Assembly: GCF_013315695.1 (NCBI RefSeq)
Contig: NZ_CP054353.1
Strand: one strand, 5' to 3'
Source of the DNA: Escherichia coli
Lineage (GTDB): Bacteria; Pseudomonadota; Gammaproteobacteria; Enterobacterales; Enterobacteriaceae
Length of the DNA stretch: 64,000 bases
In this document: one piece after another, positions 58,851 to 64,000 of the stretch
How the letters are laid out: each line of letters opens with the position of its first letter
How positions within the stretch are numbered: position 1 is the first letter of the stretch
The notes under the pieces: model-generated
Databases searched by the model: none
Told to the model about the DNA's origin: nothing
The model's input: the letters and a program-made list of their open reading frames with translations, nothing else
Program-made: the position numbers and the translations under genes

Positions 58851-60276
58851 TAATGCCGATCAGTTAAGGATCAGTTGACCGATCCAGTGGCTGTGTAAGA
58901 ATCCGGAAACGCTCACTTGTTTCCGGATTTTTTTATGCACATTGGACAGGCTCTTGATCTGGTATCCCGTTACGATTCTCTGCGTAACCCACTGACTTCT
59001 CTGGGGGATTACCTCGACCCCGAACTCATCTCTCGTTGCCTTGCCGAATCAGGTACTGTAACGCTACGCAAGCGCCGTCTTCCCCTCGAAATGATGGTCT
59101 GGTGTATTGTTGGCATGGCGCTTGAGCGTAAAGAACCTCTTCACCAGATTGTGAATCGCCTGGACATCATGCTGCCGGGCAATCGCCCCTTCGTTGCCCC
59201 CAGTGCCGTTATTCAGGCCCGCCAGCGCCTGGGAAGTGAGGCTGTCCGCCGCGTGTTCACGAAAACAGCGCAGCTCTGGCATAACGCCACGCCGCATCCG
59301 CACTGGTGCGGCCTGACCCTGCTGGCCATCGATGGTGTGTTCTGGCGCACACCGGATACACCAGAGAACGATGCAGCCTTCCCCCGCCAGACACATGCCG
59401 GGAACCCGGCGCTCTACCCGCAGGTCAAAATGGTCTGCCAGATGGAACTGACCAGCCATCTGCTGACGGCTGCAGCCTTCGGCACGATGAAGAACAGCGA
59501 AAATGAGCTTGCTGAGCAACTTATAGAACAAACCGGCGATAACACTCTGACGTTAATGGATAAAGGTTATTACTCACTGGGACTGTTAAATGCCTGGAGC
59601 CTGGCGGGAGAACACCGCCACTGGATGATACCTCTCAGAAAGGGAGCGCAATATGAAGAGATCAGAAAACTGGGTAAAGGCGATCATCTGGTGAAGCTGA
59701 AAACCAGCCCGCAGGCACGAAAAAAGTGGCCGGGACTGGGAAATGAAGTGACAGCCCGCCTGCTGACCGTGACGCGCAAAGGAAAAGTCTGCCATCTGCT
59801 GACGTCGATGACGGACGCCATGCGCTTCCCCGGAGGAGAAATGGCGGATCTGTACAGTCATCGCTGGGAAATCGAACTGGGATACAGGGAGATAAAACAG
59901 ACGATGCAACTGAGCAGGCTGACGCTGAGAAGTAAAAAACCGGAGCTTGTGGAGCAAGAGCTGTGGGGTGTCTTACTGGCTTATAATCTGGTGAGATATC
60001 AGATGATTAAAATGGCGGAACATCTGAAAGGTTACTGGCCGAATCAACTGAGTTTCTCAGAATCATGCGGAATGGTGATGAGAATGCTGATGACATTGCA
60101 GGGCGCTTCACCGGGACGTATACCGGAGCTGATGCGCGATCTTGCAAGTATGGGACAACTTGTGAAATTACCGACAAGAAGGGAAAGGGCCTTCCCGAGA
60201 GTGGTAAAGGAGAGGCCCTGGAAATACCCCACAGCCCCGAAAAAGAGCCAGTCAGTTGCTTAACTGACTGGCATTA
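58851..60276 (+). mobile_element. insertion sequence IS4 (complete, 1426 bp)
   Basis: 18-bp terminal inverted repeats TAATGCCGATCAGTTAAG (58851..58868) and CTTAACTGACTGGCATTA (60259..60276), 16/18 complementary; length 1426 bp; encodes the IS4 transposase. The 11-13 bp flanks do not match (CCCTTGAGCTG vs CAGCCTTCGGG), so there is no target-site duplication. Confidence 0.95.
58938..60263 (+). CDS. insG: IS4 transposase (DDE family)
   Basis: Translation [35 protein letters not shown]...[17 protein letters not shown] matches the IS4 transposase as I recall it; the track ORF starts 7 codons earlier (58917). Confidence 0.9.
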
Positions 60277-60308
60277 CAGCCTTCGGGCTGGCATTTTTTA
60301 TGGTTGAG

Positions 60309-61181
60309 TTACCAGCGACCGGACGCGCCGCCACCGCCAGAAGAACCGCCCCCGCCGCTAAATCCGCCGCCACTTGAGCCGCCACCGGAACCGCTGTTGT
60401 CTGAATGATAACTTCTACCAGATGCTTTTTTCTGAAGTACACATAAACAGGTAAAGACCATAATGGTGGTGAAAGTAAAAAAGAAGAAAAATACAGCAAT
60501 GGAAAAAGTTTTATCGGAGAACAGGAATAAATCTAAAAGATAGATTGCTGAAATACAGACACTGCTTTTACATGCGCGACAAAAATTACTGCCTTGATGA
60601 AAAAACCAGAAAGGGAAGAACATCACTGCAAATACCCAAAAAATAGCAAAGTAATAATGATCACTGGAAGACGCTGATTCAATTTCTGAAGGATTAGCCG
60701 GATATTGGTGTTGTGAAGTGAGTTGGTTATTCAAAGCGTTTATAGCTAGCTCTAATCCCTGAGCTAATTTTTGTTGTTTAAATGCGGGTATCATGTTGCT
60801 ACGGATGATATCTCCAGCCAGAGCATCGGTTACCTTTTCTTCCAGCCCATAACCTACCTGGATGCGGACAGTGCGATCCGACCAGGCAACAATGATCAGT
60901 ATCCCATCATTGCGTTTGGCATCTCCTAAACGCCAATTGTTAAAAACCCTTGTAGCATATTGTTCAATTGTCTCGTCTTTGGTTGTGGGAATAATTAATA
61001 CAGCAATTTGTACTTGGGTATTATTGAAAATAGATTCTAACTTCCGCGTCAGTTCTTTCTTTTCTTGTGAGTTTAAGCTACTCGTAAGATCCGTAACTTG
61101 TTGCTGTAATTGTGGGACAATAGTTGGTTGGGCTGCAACAAAGGAACACACGAATGTGAATATTAGTATGAAATAGCGCAT
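60309..61181 (-). CDS. ygcG: TPM-domain membrane protein
   Basis: 290 aa from [19 protein letters not shown] (signal peptide), TPM domain, TM segment and a Gly/Ser-rich low-complexity C-terminal tail. Confidence 0.85.
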
Positions 61182-61474
61182 TATAAATGTCCCATTAAAG
61201 CTGGATAAATAAATTGACGGCGGCATCGGTAATTTGAGATTCGTTATAATTAAAAACGAACACAGAAAAAATAAGTATAATTTCGGTGAATGTTTTTGAC
61301 ATGATTAAATCCCTTTACTTTATTTATTTCTGACATAATACGTTACTTCCTTTTATTATTAACGATCTGTTTCTCATTTTTCTTTAAACCTGCCTGTAAC
61401 AGAATGTTAATAAGACATGATTGTTGTGGCAGGATCTGCAATAATTAACAATTATCCACTTCACAGAGAATGCT

Positions 61475-62146
61475 ATGCAGTACCCGATTAACGAGATGTT
61501 CCAGACCCTGCAAGGTGAGGGTTACTTTACCGGCGTCCCCGCCATTTTTATTCGTTTACAGGGATGTCCGGTCGGCTGTGCCTGGTGCGACACCAAACAC
61601 ACCTGGGAAAAGCTTGAGGATCGGGAAGTCTCCCTTTTCAGCATTCTGGCGAAGACCAAAGAGAGTGATAAGTGGGGGGCGGCGAGCAGTGAAGATTTGC
61701 TGGCTGTCATTGGTCGTCAGGGATACACCGCGCGGCATGTGGTGATTACGGGTGGTGAGCCTTGCATTCATGATTTGCTGCCACTGACTGACCTGCTCGA
61801 AAAGAACGGTTTTAGCTGCCAGATAGAAACCAGCGGCACTCACGAAGTACGTTGCACACCGAATACCTGGGTTACTGTTTCGCCAAAACTGAACATGCGC
61901 GGCGGCTATGAAGTGTTGTCACAGGCACTGGAGCGCGCTAACGAAATTAAACATCCTGTTGGGCGTGTTCGTGACATCGAAGCGCTGGATGAGCTATTAG
62001 CAACGCTGACCGATGATAAACCACGAGTCATTGCACTGCAGCCGATTAGCCAAAAGGATGATGCCACTCGTTTGTGCATTGAAACCTGCATTGCGCGTAA
62101 CTGGCGTTTGTCGATGCAAACACATAAATATCTAAATATTGCCTGA
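61475..62146 (+). CDS. queE: 7-carboxy-7-deazaguanine synthase (radical SAM)
   Basis: 223 aa with radical-SAM cysteine motif (CPVGCAWCDTKHTW); divergent from ygcG. Confidence 0.95.
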   Translation: MQYPINEMFQTLQGEGYFTGVPAIFIRLQGCPVGCAWCDTKHTWEKLEDREVSLFSILAKTKESDKWGAASSEDLLAVIGRQGYTARHVVITGGEPCIHDLLPLTDLLEKNGFSCQIETSGTHEVRCTPNTWVTVSPKLNMRGGYEVLSQALERANEIKHPVGRVRDIEALDELLATLTDDKPRVIALQPISQKDDATRLCIETCIARNWRLSMQTHKYLNIA

Positions 62147-62485
62147 TTAAACATTTATAAGCGTTATAAATGGGTGGAACCTGTAAAGACTTCTACTCAT
62201 TTATATTGTTTGTCGCCTCTGAAAACTCATCCATCTTGCCCATCCTGAACTAATCATTATCATTCTCTACAAATTCTGTGGCGTTAATTTTTCGCTGGAG
62301 TGAAAATTATTGCGGTAAAGTTTGGTAGATTTTAGTTTGTATAGAGTTATTTTAAATATTTACCTTTTTAATCAATGGATTAAGTGCTCTTTAACATAAT
62401 GGATGTGTTGTTTGTGTGATACTGTAAAGTTGGTAGATTGTGACTGGCTTAAAAAATCATTAATTAATAATAGGTTATGTTTAGA
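62147..62485 (+). promoter_or_regulatory. CRISPR leader (AT-rich) of the main array
   Basis: AT-rich non-coding stretch directly upstream of the first repeat, in the orientation where repeats read GTGTTCCCCGCGCCAGCGGGGATAAACCG; the crRNA promoter is expected inside it. Confidence 0.5.
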
Positions 62486-63307
62486 GTGTTCCCCGCGCCA
62501 GCGGGGATAAACCAAATACAGGACCAATATTTTGATATATATAATCGTGTTCCCCGCGCCAGCGGGGATAAACCGGTGATTCTGGCAATACTGGCACTTC
62601 CGTTTTGGTGTTCCCCGCGCCAGCGGGGATAAACCGGGCGGTTAACTGGTCCTGTGCGGATATGCGCTGTGTTCCCCGCGCCAGCGGGGATAAACCGATG
62701 TGGAAAGGCGAGCTGAGGGTGGCCTACGCGTGTTCCCCGCGCCAGCGGGGATAAACCGGCTGAGGAAATTGCTAAACCCTCGCAGGATCCGTGTTCCCCG
62801 CGCCAGCGGGGATAAACCGTTGCCGGTACAGCTCCAGCATTAATCCCCACCGTGTTCCCCGCGCCAGCGGGGATAAACCGTTGCGACGTGGTGCGCGCTC
62901 GAGCACAACGTTGTGTTCCCCGCGCCAGCGGGGATAAACCGATGTAAACCCCTCGCGCATCGAGTCAAATGTCGTGTTCCCCGCGCCAGCGGGGATAAAC
63001 CGCCACCTCAGCCTGCGCGCCCGCTGAATATTCCGTGTTCCCCGCTCCAGCGGGGATAAACCGGGACGCGTTCCATCAGGGCGGGTCCAGGGAATGTGTT
63101 CCCCGCGCCAGCGGGGATAAACCGCAGGCGGCGCAGTGGCGCATGAATCCGTTCGCGTGTTCCCCGCGCCAGCGGGGATAAACCGGAGTTTGTGAATTTA
63201 ACAGAATTCCGCGCCCGGTGTTCCCCGCGCCAGCGGGGATAAACCAGCCAATTGCCATATATGCCATCGCCAGCAGCCGTGTTCCCCGCGCCAGCGGGGA
63301 TAAACCA
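62486..63307 (+). CRISPR. CRISPR array with type I-E repeats: 14 repeats, 13 spacers of 32 bp
   Basis: 29-bp repeat GTGTTCCCCGCGCCAGCGGGGATAAACCG at a perfect 61-bp period starting 62486, 62547, 62608 ... 63279. Variants: repeat 10 has CGCTCCAG; repeats 1, 13 and 14 end in A. Spacer 1 is AATACAGGACCAATATTTTGATATATATAATC, spacer 2 is GTGATTCTGGCAATACTGGCACTTCCGTTTTG. No cas genes in the window. Confidence 0.95.
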
Positions 63308-63775
63308 CCATATAACCCGTTATCTCTTTCTCAAGTTTTTATATTAGCTGTACTTGTAATAAGCAACATATCCACATAACACCTCATGTTCAAAATAGTT
63401 CCCCATGCCAGATAAGTTCACAATTATCGATACAAAAAATCAAATTTAATCAAAGTGTTATTTGTATAATCCTTAAACCGTTAAGAAATTTTAATATATT
63501 ATTTTTTTAATATTAATTAATGCCTGTTAATTTTTTCTTTAGAATAACAGTGTATTTTTTAAGCTTGTTATTCATTGATTAAGTAATAAATCTGGAAGTT
63601 TGTCTTTGTTTTGAGGCTAATGAGTGGTTTTACATAACCGCCTCTATACGCTGTTGATGAATAGTTCTTATGAATAAAGATATCCAGTTCATACTTTAAG
63701 TGAAAATTGATAAAGTGCGATTCGTATTGTCTTTTATTCTAAAGACATCGAGTGTAGTTAATATTCCTTGTAAAA

Positions 63776-63897
63776 ACAGGGATAAACCGAACTAGTTAAA
63801 GTTTTTATTATGTTCCCTGCATCAGCGGGGATAAACCGGACTTGTTATCATTTTTTAAGTTGTCGAACTTATGTTCCCCGCGTCAGCGGGGATAACC
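63776..63897 (+). CRISPR. vestigial second CRISPR array (two degenerate repeats plus one truncated repeat)
   Basis: Truncated repeat (..CAGGGATAAACCG, 63776..63789), a 20-bp spacer, ATGTTCCCTGCATCAGCGGGGATAAACCG (63810..63838), a 32-bp spacer, then ATGTTCCCCGCGTCAGCGGGGATAACC (63871..63897); preceded by its own AT-rich leader-like region (63308..63775). Confidence 0.6.
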
Positions 63898-64000
63898 ATT
63901 CAGGTATGTTCAGGCCGGGCAGTTTCCCGCCCGGCCTTCCTCACTTACGCATTCGACCAGCTCTGGATCGAATCCGCATTCCCCAATTCCCCATGCATCA

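What the first reader, a model, noticed from the sequence alone, without database searches (positions are those of the whole stretch)
62313..62440. Direct repeat inside the CRISPR leader
The leader contains two copies of a 16-17 bp motif, GTAAAGTTTGGTAGATT (about 62315) and GTAAAGTTGGTAGATTG (about 62424), roughly 110 bp apart. Repeated leader motifs could be binding sites for architectural proteins needed for spacer integration, or promoter elements.
Basis: seen in the sequence. Interest (0 to 1): 0.2.

Follow-up and report, generated by a model that had tools for sequence, protein, structure and literature searches.

The report
CRISPR leader motif and its look-alike
The downstream copy is the known leader motif that the E. 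coli spacer-integrating enzyme Cas1-Cas2 needs, and the upstream copy is a look-alike inside a decayed cas2 gene fragment that published deletions show is not needed, so the repeat is real but ordinary.

Summary
The repeat is real. GTAAAGTTTGGTAGATT lies at 62315-62331 and GTAAAGTTGGTAGATT at 62424-62439, 109 bp apart, identical except for one extra T. It is only modestly beyond chance: 11 of 400 shuffles of the leader score as well.

The locus is the queE-side type I-E array of E. coli (CRISPR-II/2.3). Copy B sits at -62..-47 from the first repeat. It covers the published Cas1-Cas2 anchoring box (essential block -46..-57, core -50..-53) and abuts the mapped -10 box at -66..-61. Its GGT is at the same position in 14 leaders from about ten genera.

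Copy A (-171..-155) lies in a decayed cas2 3' fragment at about 62270-62378, probably across a 10-nt tandem duplication of the cas2 P-V-D-L codons GGTAGATTT. It is imperfect in E. albertii and in a divergent E. coli. It is absent from 12 of 14 other leaders. All acquisition-proficient leader truncations made on this same locus remove it. In E. whittamii the A-to-B interval has been deleted.

Verdict: one known functional site plus a lineage-specific look-alike. Low interest.

The parts
61475..62146 (+). queE (ygcF), the gene flanking the CRISPR-II leader
   Evidence: 223-aa ORF. It is 100% identical to the QueE annotated in E. coli strain 104 and BL21.
62270..62378 (+). Decayed 3' fragment of a cas2 gene (codons about 60 to stop), colinear with the true leader
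   Evidence: Local alignment of the 74-nt segment holding copy A against cas2 tails scores 19.5 vs 8.6+/-1.5 for Salmonella (0/200 shuffles) and 17 vs 8.7+/-1.5 for E. coli E1. The alignment extends to ACAAATTCTG and is about 67% identical. A cas2-CDS-only nhmmer profile found nothing, so support rests on the pairwise tests and on colinearity.
62314..62332 (+). Probable 10-nt tandem duplication GGTAAAGTTT|GGTAGATTT of the cas2 P-V-D-L codons (CC GGTAGATTT GG)
   Evidence: Removing 62314-62323 raises the alignment score against all four cas2 tails tested. GGTAGATTT is the native sequence in cas2 of Salmonella, K. pneumoniae, E. kobei and K-12.
62315..62331 (+). Copy A, GTAAAGTTTGGTAGATT (-171..-155): look-alike of the leader box, no evidence of function
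   Evidence: It differs at 2 of 17 positions in E. albertii and 5 of 17 in the divergent E. coli WP8-S17. It has no counterpart in 12 of 14 leaders. It is outside every functional truncation in PMC3384332.
62370..62382 (+). Perfect IHF-consensus match AATCAATGGATTA (-116..-104), homologous to the cas2 stop-codon region AATCAATAAGTTR
   Evidence: the only match in the leader. It is conserved in 14 leaders whether or not it is coding. The last 8 cas2 codons show 0.73 codon identity, against 0.29-0.59 elsewhere. Binding was not tested.
62387..62394 (+). Conserved CTCTTTAA box of I-E leaders
   Evidence: nhmmer alignment and 14-leader alignment.
62420..62425 (+). -10 box of the pre-crRNA promoter as placed in the literature (-66..-61): TACTGT here, TACTAT in BL21 and K-12
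   Evidence: PMC3384332, citing Pul 2010. Sequences. Not verified here; a review gives a different likely start, about -95, for this array.
62424..62439 (+). Copy B, GTAAAGTTGGTAGATT (-62..-47): conserved upstream leader box and Cas1-Cas2 integrase anchoring site; core GTAG at 62433-62436
   Evidence: Published conserved box at -44..-59 and IAS at -50..-53. CBS2 (-46..-57) is essential and CBS3 (-58..-69) is dispensable. GGT is at the same position in 14 leaders. nhmmer E=5e-12 for 62363-62484.
62451..62477 (+). Proximal IHF binding region (-35..-9)
   Evidence: Position taken from PMC5224486 and PMC10011333. Sequence AAAAAATCATTAATTAATAATAGGTTA.
62486..63307 (+). CRISPR-II (2.3) array: 14 repeats of 29 nt, 61-nt period
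   Evidence: family D1.

Best explanation
This is the leader of the E. coli queE-side type I-E array (CRISPR-II/2.3). Copy B is the conserved upstream leader box. IHF, bound at -9..-35, bends the leader, and that brings this box (core GTAG at -53..-50) into contact with Cas1-Cas2 docked at the leader-repeat junction, so that new spacers go in at the first repeat. The 5' end of B also abuts the -10 hexamer of the array promoter. Copy A is not a second working site. About 110 nt of the 'leader' upstream of the true leader is a decayed cas2 3' end that was carried along when the leader and array became separated from cas genes. The cas2 codons for P-V-D-L read CC-GGTAGATTT-GG, which already share GGTAGATT with the leader box. 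A 10-nt tandem duplication of that stretch created TTTGGTAGATT. Two G-to-A transitions in the main E. coli lineage then completed the 16-nt match. The only consequence seen for the repeat is that it can serve as a substrate for deletion. Shown here: the coordinates, the homology to cas2 plus the cas2-linked leader, the conservation pattern, and the E. whittamii deletion. Taken from the literature: the function of B and the dispensability of everything upstream of -60. Inferred: the duplication-plus-drift history and the absence of function for A.
For: B matches a known functional site.
- It overlaps the conserved -44..-59 box and the IAS at -50..-53.
- It overlaps the essential CBS2 block at -46..-57.
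- Its GGT is at a fixed distance from the repeat in 14 leaders of about ten genera.
- The cas2-tail-plus-leader profile hits 62363-62484 with E=5e-12, and B falls on the consensus taaagttggtaggttgt.

A lies in a cas2 relic.
- The leader aligns with cas2 3' end plus CRISPR-I leader at score 29 vs 13.3+/-2.2.
- The A-containing segment alone scores 19.5 vs 8.6+/-1.5 against the Salmonella cas2 tail, with 0 of 200 shuffles as high.
- The alignment shows CTGGAGTGAAAA and TATTxCGGTAxA in order.
- Removing 62314-62323 improves all four alignments.

A is not constrained.
- E. albertii has GTAGAGTTTGGTGGATT and the divergent E. coli WP8-S17 has TCGGAGTTTGGTGGATT, while B is identical or differs at 1 nt in the same genomes.
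- The E. albertii version is closer to cas2 than the E. coli one (22.5 vs 19.5).
- The homologous cas2 codons show baseline synonymous variation (0.49).
- 12 of 14 leaders have no upstream duplicate of their own box.

A is dispensable.
- BL21-AI 'array I' is this locus, with copy A identical.
- Leaders cut to 150, 100, 80 or 60 nt still acquire spacers.
- A 69-bp leader suffices in vitro and in vivo.

Deletion.
- The E. whittamii leader lacks exactly the A-to-B period and keeps one hybrid copy.
Against: - The repeat is somewhat better than chance (11/400).
- Both lineage-specific substitutions in A go toward B.
- A second E. coli leader, K-12 E2 CRISPR-I, independently has a 12-nt exact duplicate of its own box in the cas2 tail at -135 and -62 (P<=0.001). 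Pure drift does not easily explain two such cases.
- The acquisition assays used over-expressed Cas1-Cas2 and scored bands on gels, so a modest quantitative or regulatory contribution from A would have been missed.
- A cas2-CDS-only HMM did not detect the relic.
- Two alignment registers 10 nt apart are both defensible, so the exact history is uncertain.
- A preprint states that some I-E leaders carry several IHF sites and motifs 100-200 bp upstream. A perfect IHF-consensus site lies between A and B.
Confidence: 0.72

Rival explanations
1. Copy A is a working second site. Together with the IHF-consensus site at 62370-62382 it would form a distal module, as in two-IHF leaders of type I-F. This module would offer a second Cas1-Cas2 contact, a decoy or loading site, or a binding site for a transcription regulator about 60-75 nt upstream of a start site near -95.
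For: - The order is motif, IHF-like site, motif, IHF site, repeat.
- The distal IHF-consensus is conserved in 14 leaders and at synonymous sites of cas2.
- The spacing between the distal boxes and the B box changes in steps of about 11 nt.
- Some I-E leaders are reported to have several IHF sites and motifs up to 100-200 bp upstream.
- K-12 E2 CRISPR-I also has an upstream duplicate of its box.
- A review places a likely CRISPR-2 start site about 95 nt upstream.
Against: - Leaders of 60-150 nt that lack A still acquire spacers at this locus.
- A differs at 2-5 of 17 positions in E. albertii and a divergent E. coli, while B is kept.
- 12 of 14 leaders, including all other genera, have no such duplicate.
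- The distance from motif to IHF-like core is 38 nt for A and 15 nt for B, so the two modules are not congruent.
- cas2 codons at the homologous place show no extra constraint.
- The consensus scan finds no promoter-like site at either copy.
Confidence: 0.1
2. A has no function, but its perfection is not drift. It was corrected against B by template switching or short-patch gene conversion between nearby imperfect direct repeats. The same process would have produced the 12-nt duplicate in the K-12 E2 leader.
For: - Both changes that separate E. coli A from the E. albertii and WP8-S17 versions make it identical to B.
- Two independent E. coli leaders have an upstream exact duplicate of their own box, and each copy carries that leader's own variant bases (P=0.005 and <=0.001).
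- The same repeats recombined in E. whittamii, so they do interact.
Against: - The extra T between the two corrected positions was not corrected. A single conversion tract is therefore excluded and two separate events would be needed.
- Both changes are G-to-A transitions, the commonest spontaneous change in AT-rich non-coding DNA.
- The B polymorphisms (G/A at -62; T in WP8-S17) are not mirrored in A.
Confidence: 0.15
3. The repeat is a pure coincidence of AT-rich, low-complexity leader DNA, with no shared history between the copies.
For: About 3% of dinucleotide shuffles of the leader contain an equally good direct repeat. The finding was picked by eye from 64 kb, so some post hoc selection applies.
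Against: Half of the match (GGTAGATT) is explained by descent from cas2 codons that share this 8-mer with the leader box in several genera. The 10-mer TTGGTAGATT occurs nowhere else in 64 kb.
Confidence: 0.1

Closest known systems
Type I-E leader upstream motif, also called the integrase anchoring site (IAS; Yoganand et al. 2017, PMC5224486; upstream motif in the Wright et al. 2017 integration-complex structure, as cited)
   Same: Copy B is at the same distance from the first repeat. It has the same conserved GGTAG core and sits upstream of the IHF site at -9..-35. The published mutagenesis and pull-down used this very leader or one like it (BL21-AI / leader 2.3).
   Different: Copy A shares the sequence but not the position, the conservation, the flanking repeat or the experimental requirement. 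It is a look-alike, not a member.
Multi-motif CRISPR leaders with two IHF sites (type I-F of P. aeruginosa and 'some I-E'; bioRxiv 10.1101/2023.05.26.542337, citing Santiago-Frangos et al. 2021)
   Same: The order motif, IHF-like site, motif, IHF site, repeat over about 170 bp resembles those leaders. The distal IHF-consensus site is conserved.
   Different: No evidence that E. coli I-E uses a second IHF site. The E. coli system is described as relying on one IHF and one motif about 50 bp upstream. The distal motif (A) is not conserved and is dispensable in the assays done so far.
Orphan (cas-less) CRISPR arrays that keep fragments of cas genes
   Same: The queE-side array has no adjacent cas genes, and its upstream flank keeps about 110 nt of a cas2 3' end. 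The same is seen at the queE-side arrays of Phytobacter, Pseudocitrobacter and an unnamed Enterobacteriaceae genome.
   Different: I did not find this relic described for E. coli leader 2.3 in the papers I could read. Touchon & Rocha called the CRISPR1 and CRISPR2 leaders of Escherichia 'very different'.
Deletion between short direct repeats (replication slippage or RecA-independent recombination)
   Same: E. whittamii lacks exactly one repeat period. It keeps A's left flank, one hybrid motif and B's right flank.
   Different: Seen in one genome only. The mechanism is inferred from the junction structure.

Membership tests
I-E leader integrase anchoring box (IAS / conserved box -44..-59) | [quoted passage not shown] | tested here: met
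   Copy B is at -62..-47, with GTAG at -53..-50. Copy A, at -171..-155, does not meet this.
I-E leader integrase anchoring box (IAS / conserved box -44..-59) | Sequence conserved across I-E leaders of IHF-containing enterobacteria | tested here: met
   For B, GGT is at the same position in 14 leaders and the consensus is aaagtTGGTAGaTtgt. For A this is not met: it differs in E. albertii and WP8-S17 and is absent in 12 of 14 leaders.
I-E leader integrase anchoring box (IAS / conserved box -44..-59) | An IHF site lies between the motif and the leader-repeat junction, so that bending brings the two together | tested here: inconclusive
   B is followed by the published IHF region at -35..-9 and then the repeat. 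That region is not a perfect consensus match in my scan. A is followed after 38 nt by a perfect consensus site, but no repeat follows at the required distance.
I-E leader integrase anchoring box (IAS / conserved box -44..-59) | Required for spacer acquisition and for the Cas1-Cas2/IHF/DNA complex | not testable with these tools
   From the literature: CBS2 and CBS2(C) mutations abolish both, which covers B. Truncations that remove A keep acquisition at this locus.
cas2 pseudogene fragment | Significant nucleotide similarity to cas2, colinear with the neighbouring leader | tested here: met
   Pairwise local alignments have z of about 5-8 and 0 of 200 shuffles reach the observed score against Salmonella and E1 cas2 tails. 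The order cas2 tail, stop region, leader boxes is preserved. Caveat: the cas2-CDS-only nhmmer profile gave no hit.
Sigma-70 promoter element of the pre-crRNA | -10 or -35 hexamer at the mapped distance from the transcription start | not testable with these tools
   The literature places the -10 box at -66..-61. It overlaps only the first 2 nt of B. The consensus scan found no promoter-like site at A or B. Pul et al. 2010 is not held.
IHF binding site (for 62370-62382) | Match to WATCARNNNNTTR | tested here: met
   AATCAATGGATTA is a perfect match. There are 10 matches in 64 kb against 4.4 expected. Binding itself was not tested.

The most novel reading that the evidence does not exclude
The functional type I-E leader of enterobacteria may extend about 170 bp, into the 3' end of cas2. 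The distal IHF-consensus site at the cas2 stop codon would make a second bend. That bend would present a second GGTAG-type box to the Cas1-Cas2 integrase or to a regulator. This second box would be copy A here and the TTAAGGTTGGTG copy inside cas2 in K-12. On this reading cas-less arrays keep a cas2 tail because it is part of the leader, and E. coli has twice evolved an exact second box.
Probability: 0.08. Interest if true: 0.5.

Novelty: already known. Interest (0 to 1): 0.2.

Why it matters
It matters little for CRISPR mechanism. The working element (copy B) is already mapped genetically, biochemically and structurally, and the extra copy appears to be evolutionary debris.

Three small points may be useful.
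- The 'leader' of the much-used E. coli CRISPR-II/BL21 array is partly a cas2 relic, which bears on how this cas-less array arose.
- A conserved IHF-consensus site overlaps the cas2 stop codon and is kept in cas-less leaders. It is a better candidate for an unrecognised distal leader element than copy A.
- Leader look-alikes can drive deletions that shorten the leader, as seen in E. whittamii.

Tried and rejected
- The repeat finder did not report the pair, because the indel leaves pieces shorter than 12 nt.
- The promoter/terminator scan found nothing at either copy.
- Rfam had no family match in 61400-64000.
- An nhmmer profile of the cas2 CDS alone gave no hit in 62148-62375. The relic claim therefore rests on pairwise alignments with shuffles and on colinearity.
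- A synthetic A/B deletion-junction query, meant to count E. coli genomes with the E. whittamii-type deletion, was uninformative. The tool joins the two half-matches into one place.
- Tile searches over 5,426 E. coli genomes gave exact matches of 3166/4188 for the A tile, 2262/3661 for the middle tile and 1206/4079 for the B tile. These numbers reflect a few common haplotypes, such as the -62 G/A polymorphism, not site-specific constraint.
- Pul et al. 2010, Wright et al. 2017 and Santiago-Frangos et al. 2021 are not held. Promoter mapping and the multi-motif statement are therefore second-hand.
- I considered that A marks a second, decayed leader-repeat junction. I rejected this because no repeat-like sequence follows A and the leader profile hits only once in 60000-64000.
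- I considered that the E. whittamii single-copy state is ancestral. I rejected this because the missing interval is homologous to the cas2-stop and leader boxes of cas2-linked leaders.

Full report
**The locus.** The end of the window holds queE (ygcF) at 61475-62146 on the + strand, then a 338-nt intergenic 'leader' at 62148-62485. A type I-E array of 14 repeats follows at 62486-63307, then a 0.5-kb AT-rich stretch and degenerate repeats. This is the E. coli CRISPR-II (CRISPR2.3) locus. The leader is found in 4574 of 5426 complete E. coli genomes at 91-100% identity. It is 97% identical to the K-12 locus between ygcE and queE.

**The observation.** GTAAAGTTTGGTAGATT lies at 62315-62331 (copy A) and GTAAAGTTGGTAGATT at 62424-62439 (copy B). 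They are 109 bp apart and identical except for one extra T in A. The full motif and the shared 10-mer TTGGTAGATT occur nowhere else in the 64 kb. As a direct repeat within an AT-rich 338-nt leader it is only moderately unusual. The score is 27, against 19.5 +/- 2.7 in 400 dinucleotide shuffles, and 11 of 400 reach it. Relative to the first repeat (62486), A is at -171..-155 and B at -62..-47.

**Copy B is a known element.**
- Yoganand et al. reported that I-E leaders conserve the IHF site (-9..-35) and a second box (-44..-59). Replacing -46..-57 (CBS2) or only -50..-53 (CBS2(C), their 'integrase anchoring site') abolishes spacer acquisition in vivo. It also abolishes the IHF-dependent Cas1-Cas2 complex and integration in vitro. 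Replacing -58..-69 has no effect.
- In the window, -57..-46 reads GTTGGTAGATTG and -53..-50 reads GTAG. So the 3' two-thirds of B is that essential box.
- A review and a preprint summarise the structural picture. IHF bends the leader so that a motif about 50 bp upstream touches Cas1.
- Yosef et al. place the -10 box of the array promoter at -66..-61. That is TACTAT in BL21 and K-12 and TACTGT here, and it overlaps the first two bases of B.
- My own comparison agrees. A profile of cas2 tail plus leader from seven cas2-linked I-E loci hits 62363-62484 with E=5e-12, with B on the consensus. In an alignment of 14 leaders from about ten genera the GGT of the box is at the same distance from the repeat in every one.

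**Copy A lies in a cas2 relic.**
- The CRISPR-II leader aligns with the 3' end of cas2 plus the CRISPR-I leader of both E. coli cas variants. Scores are 29 and 28, against about 13 +/- 2 for shuffles.
- The profile search firmly supports homology from the last cas2 codons (CCT GTT GAA AAT CAA TAA) onward.
- Upstream of that, a cas2-CDS-only profile finds nothing.
- Pairwise tests on the 74-nt segment that contains A are clear, however. The score is 19.5 vs 8.6 +/- 1.5 against the Salmonella cas2 tail and 17 vs 8.7 +/- 1.5 against E. coli E1 cas2, with 0 of 200 shuffles as high.
- The alignment runs from ACAAATTCTG (about 62270) through CTGGAGTGAAAA and TATTGCGGTA to the stop region, at about 67% identity.
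- Copy A falls on the codons R-I-P-V-D-L-D-G.
- Two registers 10 nt apart both align, because A is internally repetitive (GGTAAAGTTT GGTAGATTT). Deleting the first unit improves the alignment to all four cas2 tails tested.
- The simplest history is a 10-nt tandem duplication of the cas2 sequence GGTAGATTT. That 9-mer is the native P-V-D-L coding sequence in Salmonella, K. pneumoniae, E. kobei and K-12 cas2. It shares GGTAGATT with the leader box, so the duplication automatically yields TTTGGTAGATT.

**Copy A is lineage-specific and unconstrained.**
- E. albertii has GTAGAGTTTGGTGGATT (2 of 17 different).
- The divergent E. coli WP8-S17 has TCGGAGTTTGGTGGATT (5 of 17 different).
- In the same genomes B is identical or differs at one base.
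- The E. albertii version is closer to cas2 than the E. coli one. The perfect match is therefore derived, through G-to-A changes in the main E. coli lineage.
- In intact cas2 genes the homologous codons show ordinary synonymous variation (0.49 codon identity; other windows range 0.29-0.59). The last eight codons are unusually fixed (0.73).
- I tested each of 14 leaders for an upstream duplicate of its own box. Only this leader (P=0.005) and the K-12 E2 CRISPR-I leader stand out. K-12 E2 has TTAAGGTTGGTG at -135 inside cas2 and at -62 (P<=0.001). The other 12 show nothing.

**Direct experimental evidence exists for this very locus.**
- Yosef et al. built leader truncations in BL21-AI 'array I'. 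They state that its leader is identical to K-12 array II. Díez-Villaseñor et al. call it leader 2.3.
- I fetched the cited coordinates. They are the queE-side array. Copy A is identical there, and the leader differs from the window at ten positions.
- Leaders cut to 150, 100, 80 and 60 nt all supported acquisition, while 40 and 20 nt did not. All of these constructs lack copy A.
- Constructs with 69 bp of leader are also functional.
- These assays used over-expressed Cas1-Cas2 and gel read-outs, so a subtle role for A is not excluded.

**One visible consequence of the repeat.** In E. whittamii the intergenic region is about 109 nt shorter. It has A's left flank, one hybrid motif (GTTGGAGTTTGGTTGATT) and B's right flank. 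The missing interval contains the cas2-stop and leader boxes shared with cas2-linked leaders. This is therefore a deletion between the two copies, not an ancestral state.

**What remains open.**
- Both E. coli-specific changes in A go toward B.
- A second E. coli leader has its own exact upstream duplicate.
- A perfect IHF-consensus site (62370-62382) lies between A and B. It is conserved in all 14 leaders, coding or not.
- A preprint notes that some I-E leaders carry several IHF sites and motifs up to 100-200 bp upstream.
- These points keep alive two minority readings: a functional distal module, or correction of A against B by template switching.
- Against them stand the uncorrected extra T, the different motif-to-IHF spacing (38 vs 15 nt), the lack of conservation of A, and the truncation experiments.

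**Comparison with the literature and verdict.** B is a member of the known I-E leader anchoring box. A resembles it in sequence only and fails the tests of position, conservation and requirement. I did not find the cas2 relic or the A/B repeat described in the papers I could read. Touchon & Rocha regarded the two Escherichia leaders as very different. Pul 2010, Wright 2017 and Santiago-Frangos 2021 were not available. The finding is real and explained, and of low interest. The functional part is already known, and the repeated part is most likely a by-product of how this cas-less array arose.

Noticed in passing
window 62370-62382; L088, L090, L091, L093, L095 and L003 at the cas2 stop codon: A perfect IHF-consensus sequence (AATCAATAAGTTR) overlaps the last two codons and the stop codon of cas2 in most enterobacterial I-E loci. 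It is kept in cas-less queE-side leaders, and the last 8 cas2 codons are unusually fixed at synonymous sites (0.73 vs 0.29-0.59). This is a candidate distal leader element.
   Followed up: partly
14-leader alignment (window 62387-62432 and homologues): The distance between the conserved CTCTTTAA box and the GGTAG box falls into three classes that differ by about 11 nt, roughly one helical turn each. E. coli CRISPR-II and Pseudocitrobacter are in the longest class.
   Followed up: partly
L001 (K-12 CRISPR-I), -135 and -62 from the first repeat: The K-12 (E2) leader has its own exact 12-nt direct repeat, TTAAGGTTGGTG. One copy lies in the cas2 codons L-R-L-V and the other at the leader box (P<=0.001 against shuffled boxes). 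It is not seen in the E1 variant or in other genera.
   Followed up: partly
L006 3674-3902 (E. whittamii): The leader lacks exactly the interval between the two motif copies, and the array is reduced to one degenerate repeat.
   Followed up: yes
window 62424 (-62): There is a G/A polymorphism in the published -10 box: TACTGT in the window, E. albertii and some E. coli; TACTAT in K-12 and BL21. Most E. coli genomes differ from the window in this tile (2873 of 4079), but the tile search does not show at which position. It could change array transcription.
   Followed up: partly
L059, L074, L077, L057 (queE-side arrays of Phytobacter, an unnamed Enterobacteriaceae genome and Pseudocitrobacter): Other genera also have a cas-less I-E array directly downstream of queE. 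Their leaders also keep a recognisable cas2 3' tail (for example CCGGTGAAATTGG...TTAATCAATAAGTTAG in L059).
   Followed up: partly
window 62514, 63246, 63307 and 63046: The first, 13th and 14th repeats end in A instead of the usual G. That base is reported to come from the PAM of the acquired spacer. The 10th repeat has a G-to-T change in its stem (CCCCGCTCCAGCGGGG).
   Followed up: no
window 63308-63899: A 0.5-kb AT-rich stretch follows the array, then two or three degenerate repeats (CRISPR2.2). The cas2-tail/leader profile finds no second leader there.
   Followed up: partly
L003 18945-23305 (E. coli strain 104, leader 100% identical to the window): In this closest genome, cas3 is annotated as frameshifted and casA as carrying an internal stop, so the I-E interference genes appear to be decaying. 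The window itself does not reach the cas operon.
   Followed up: no
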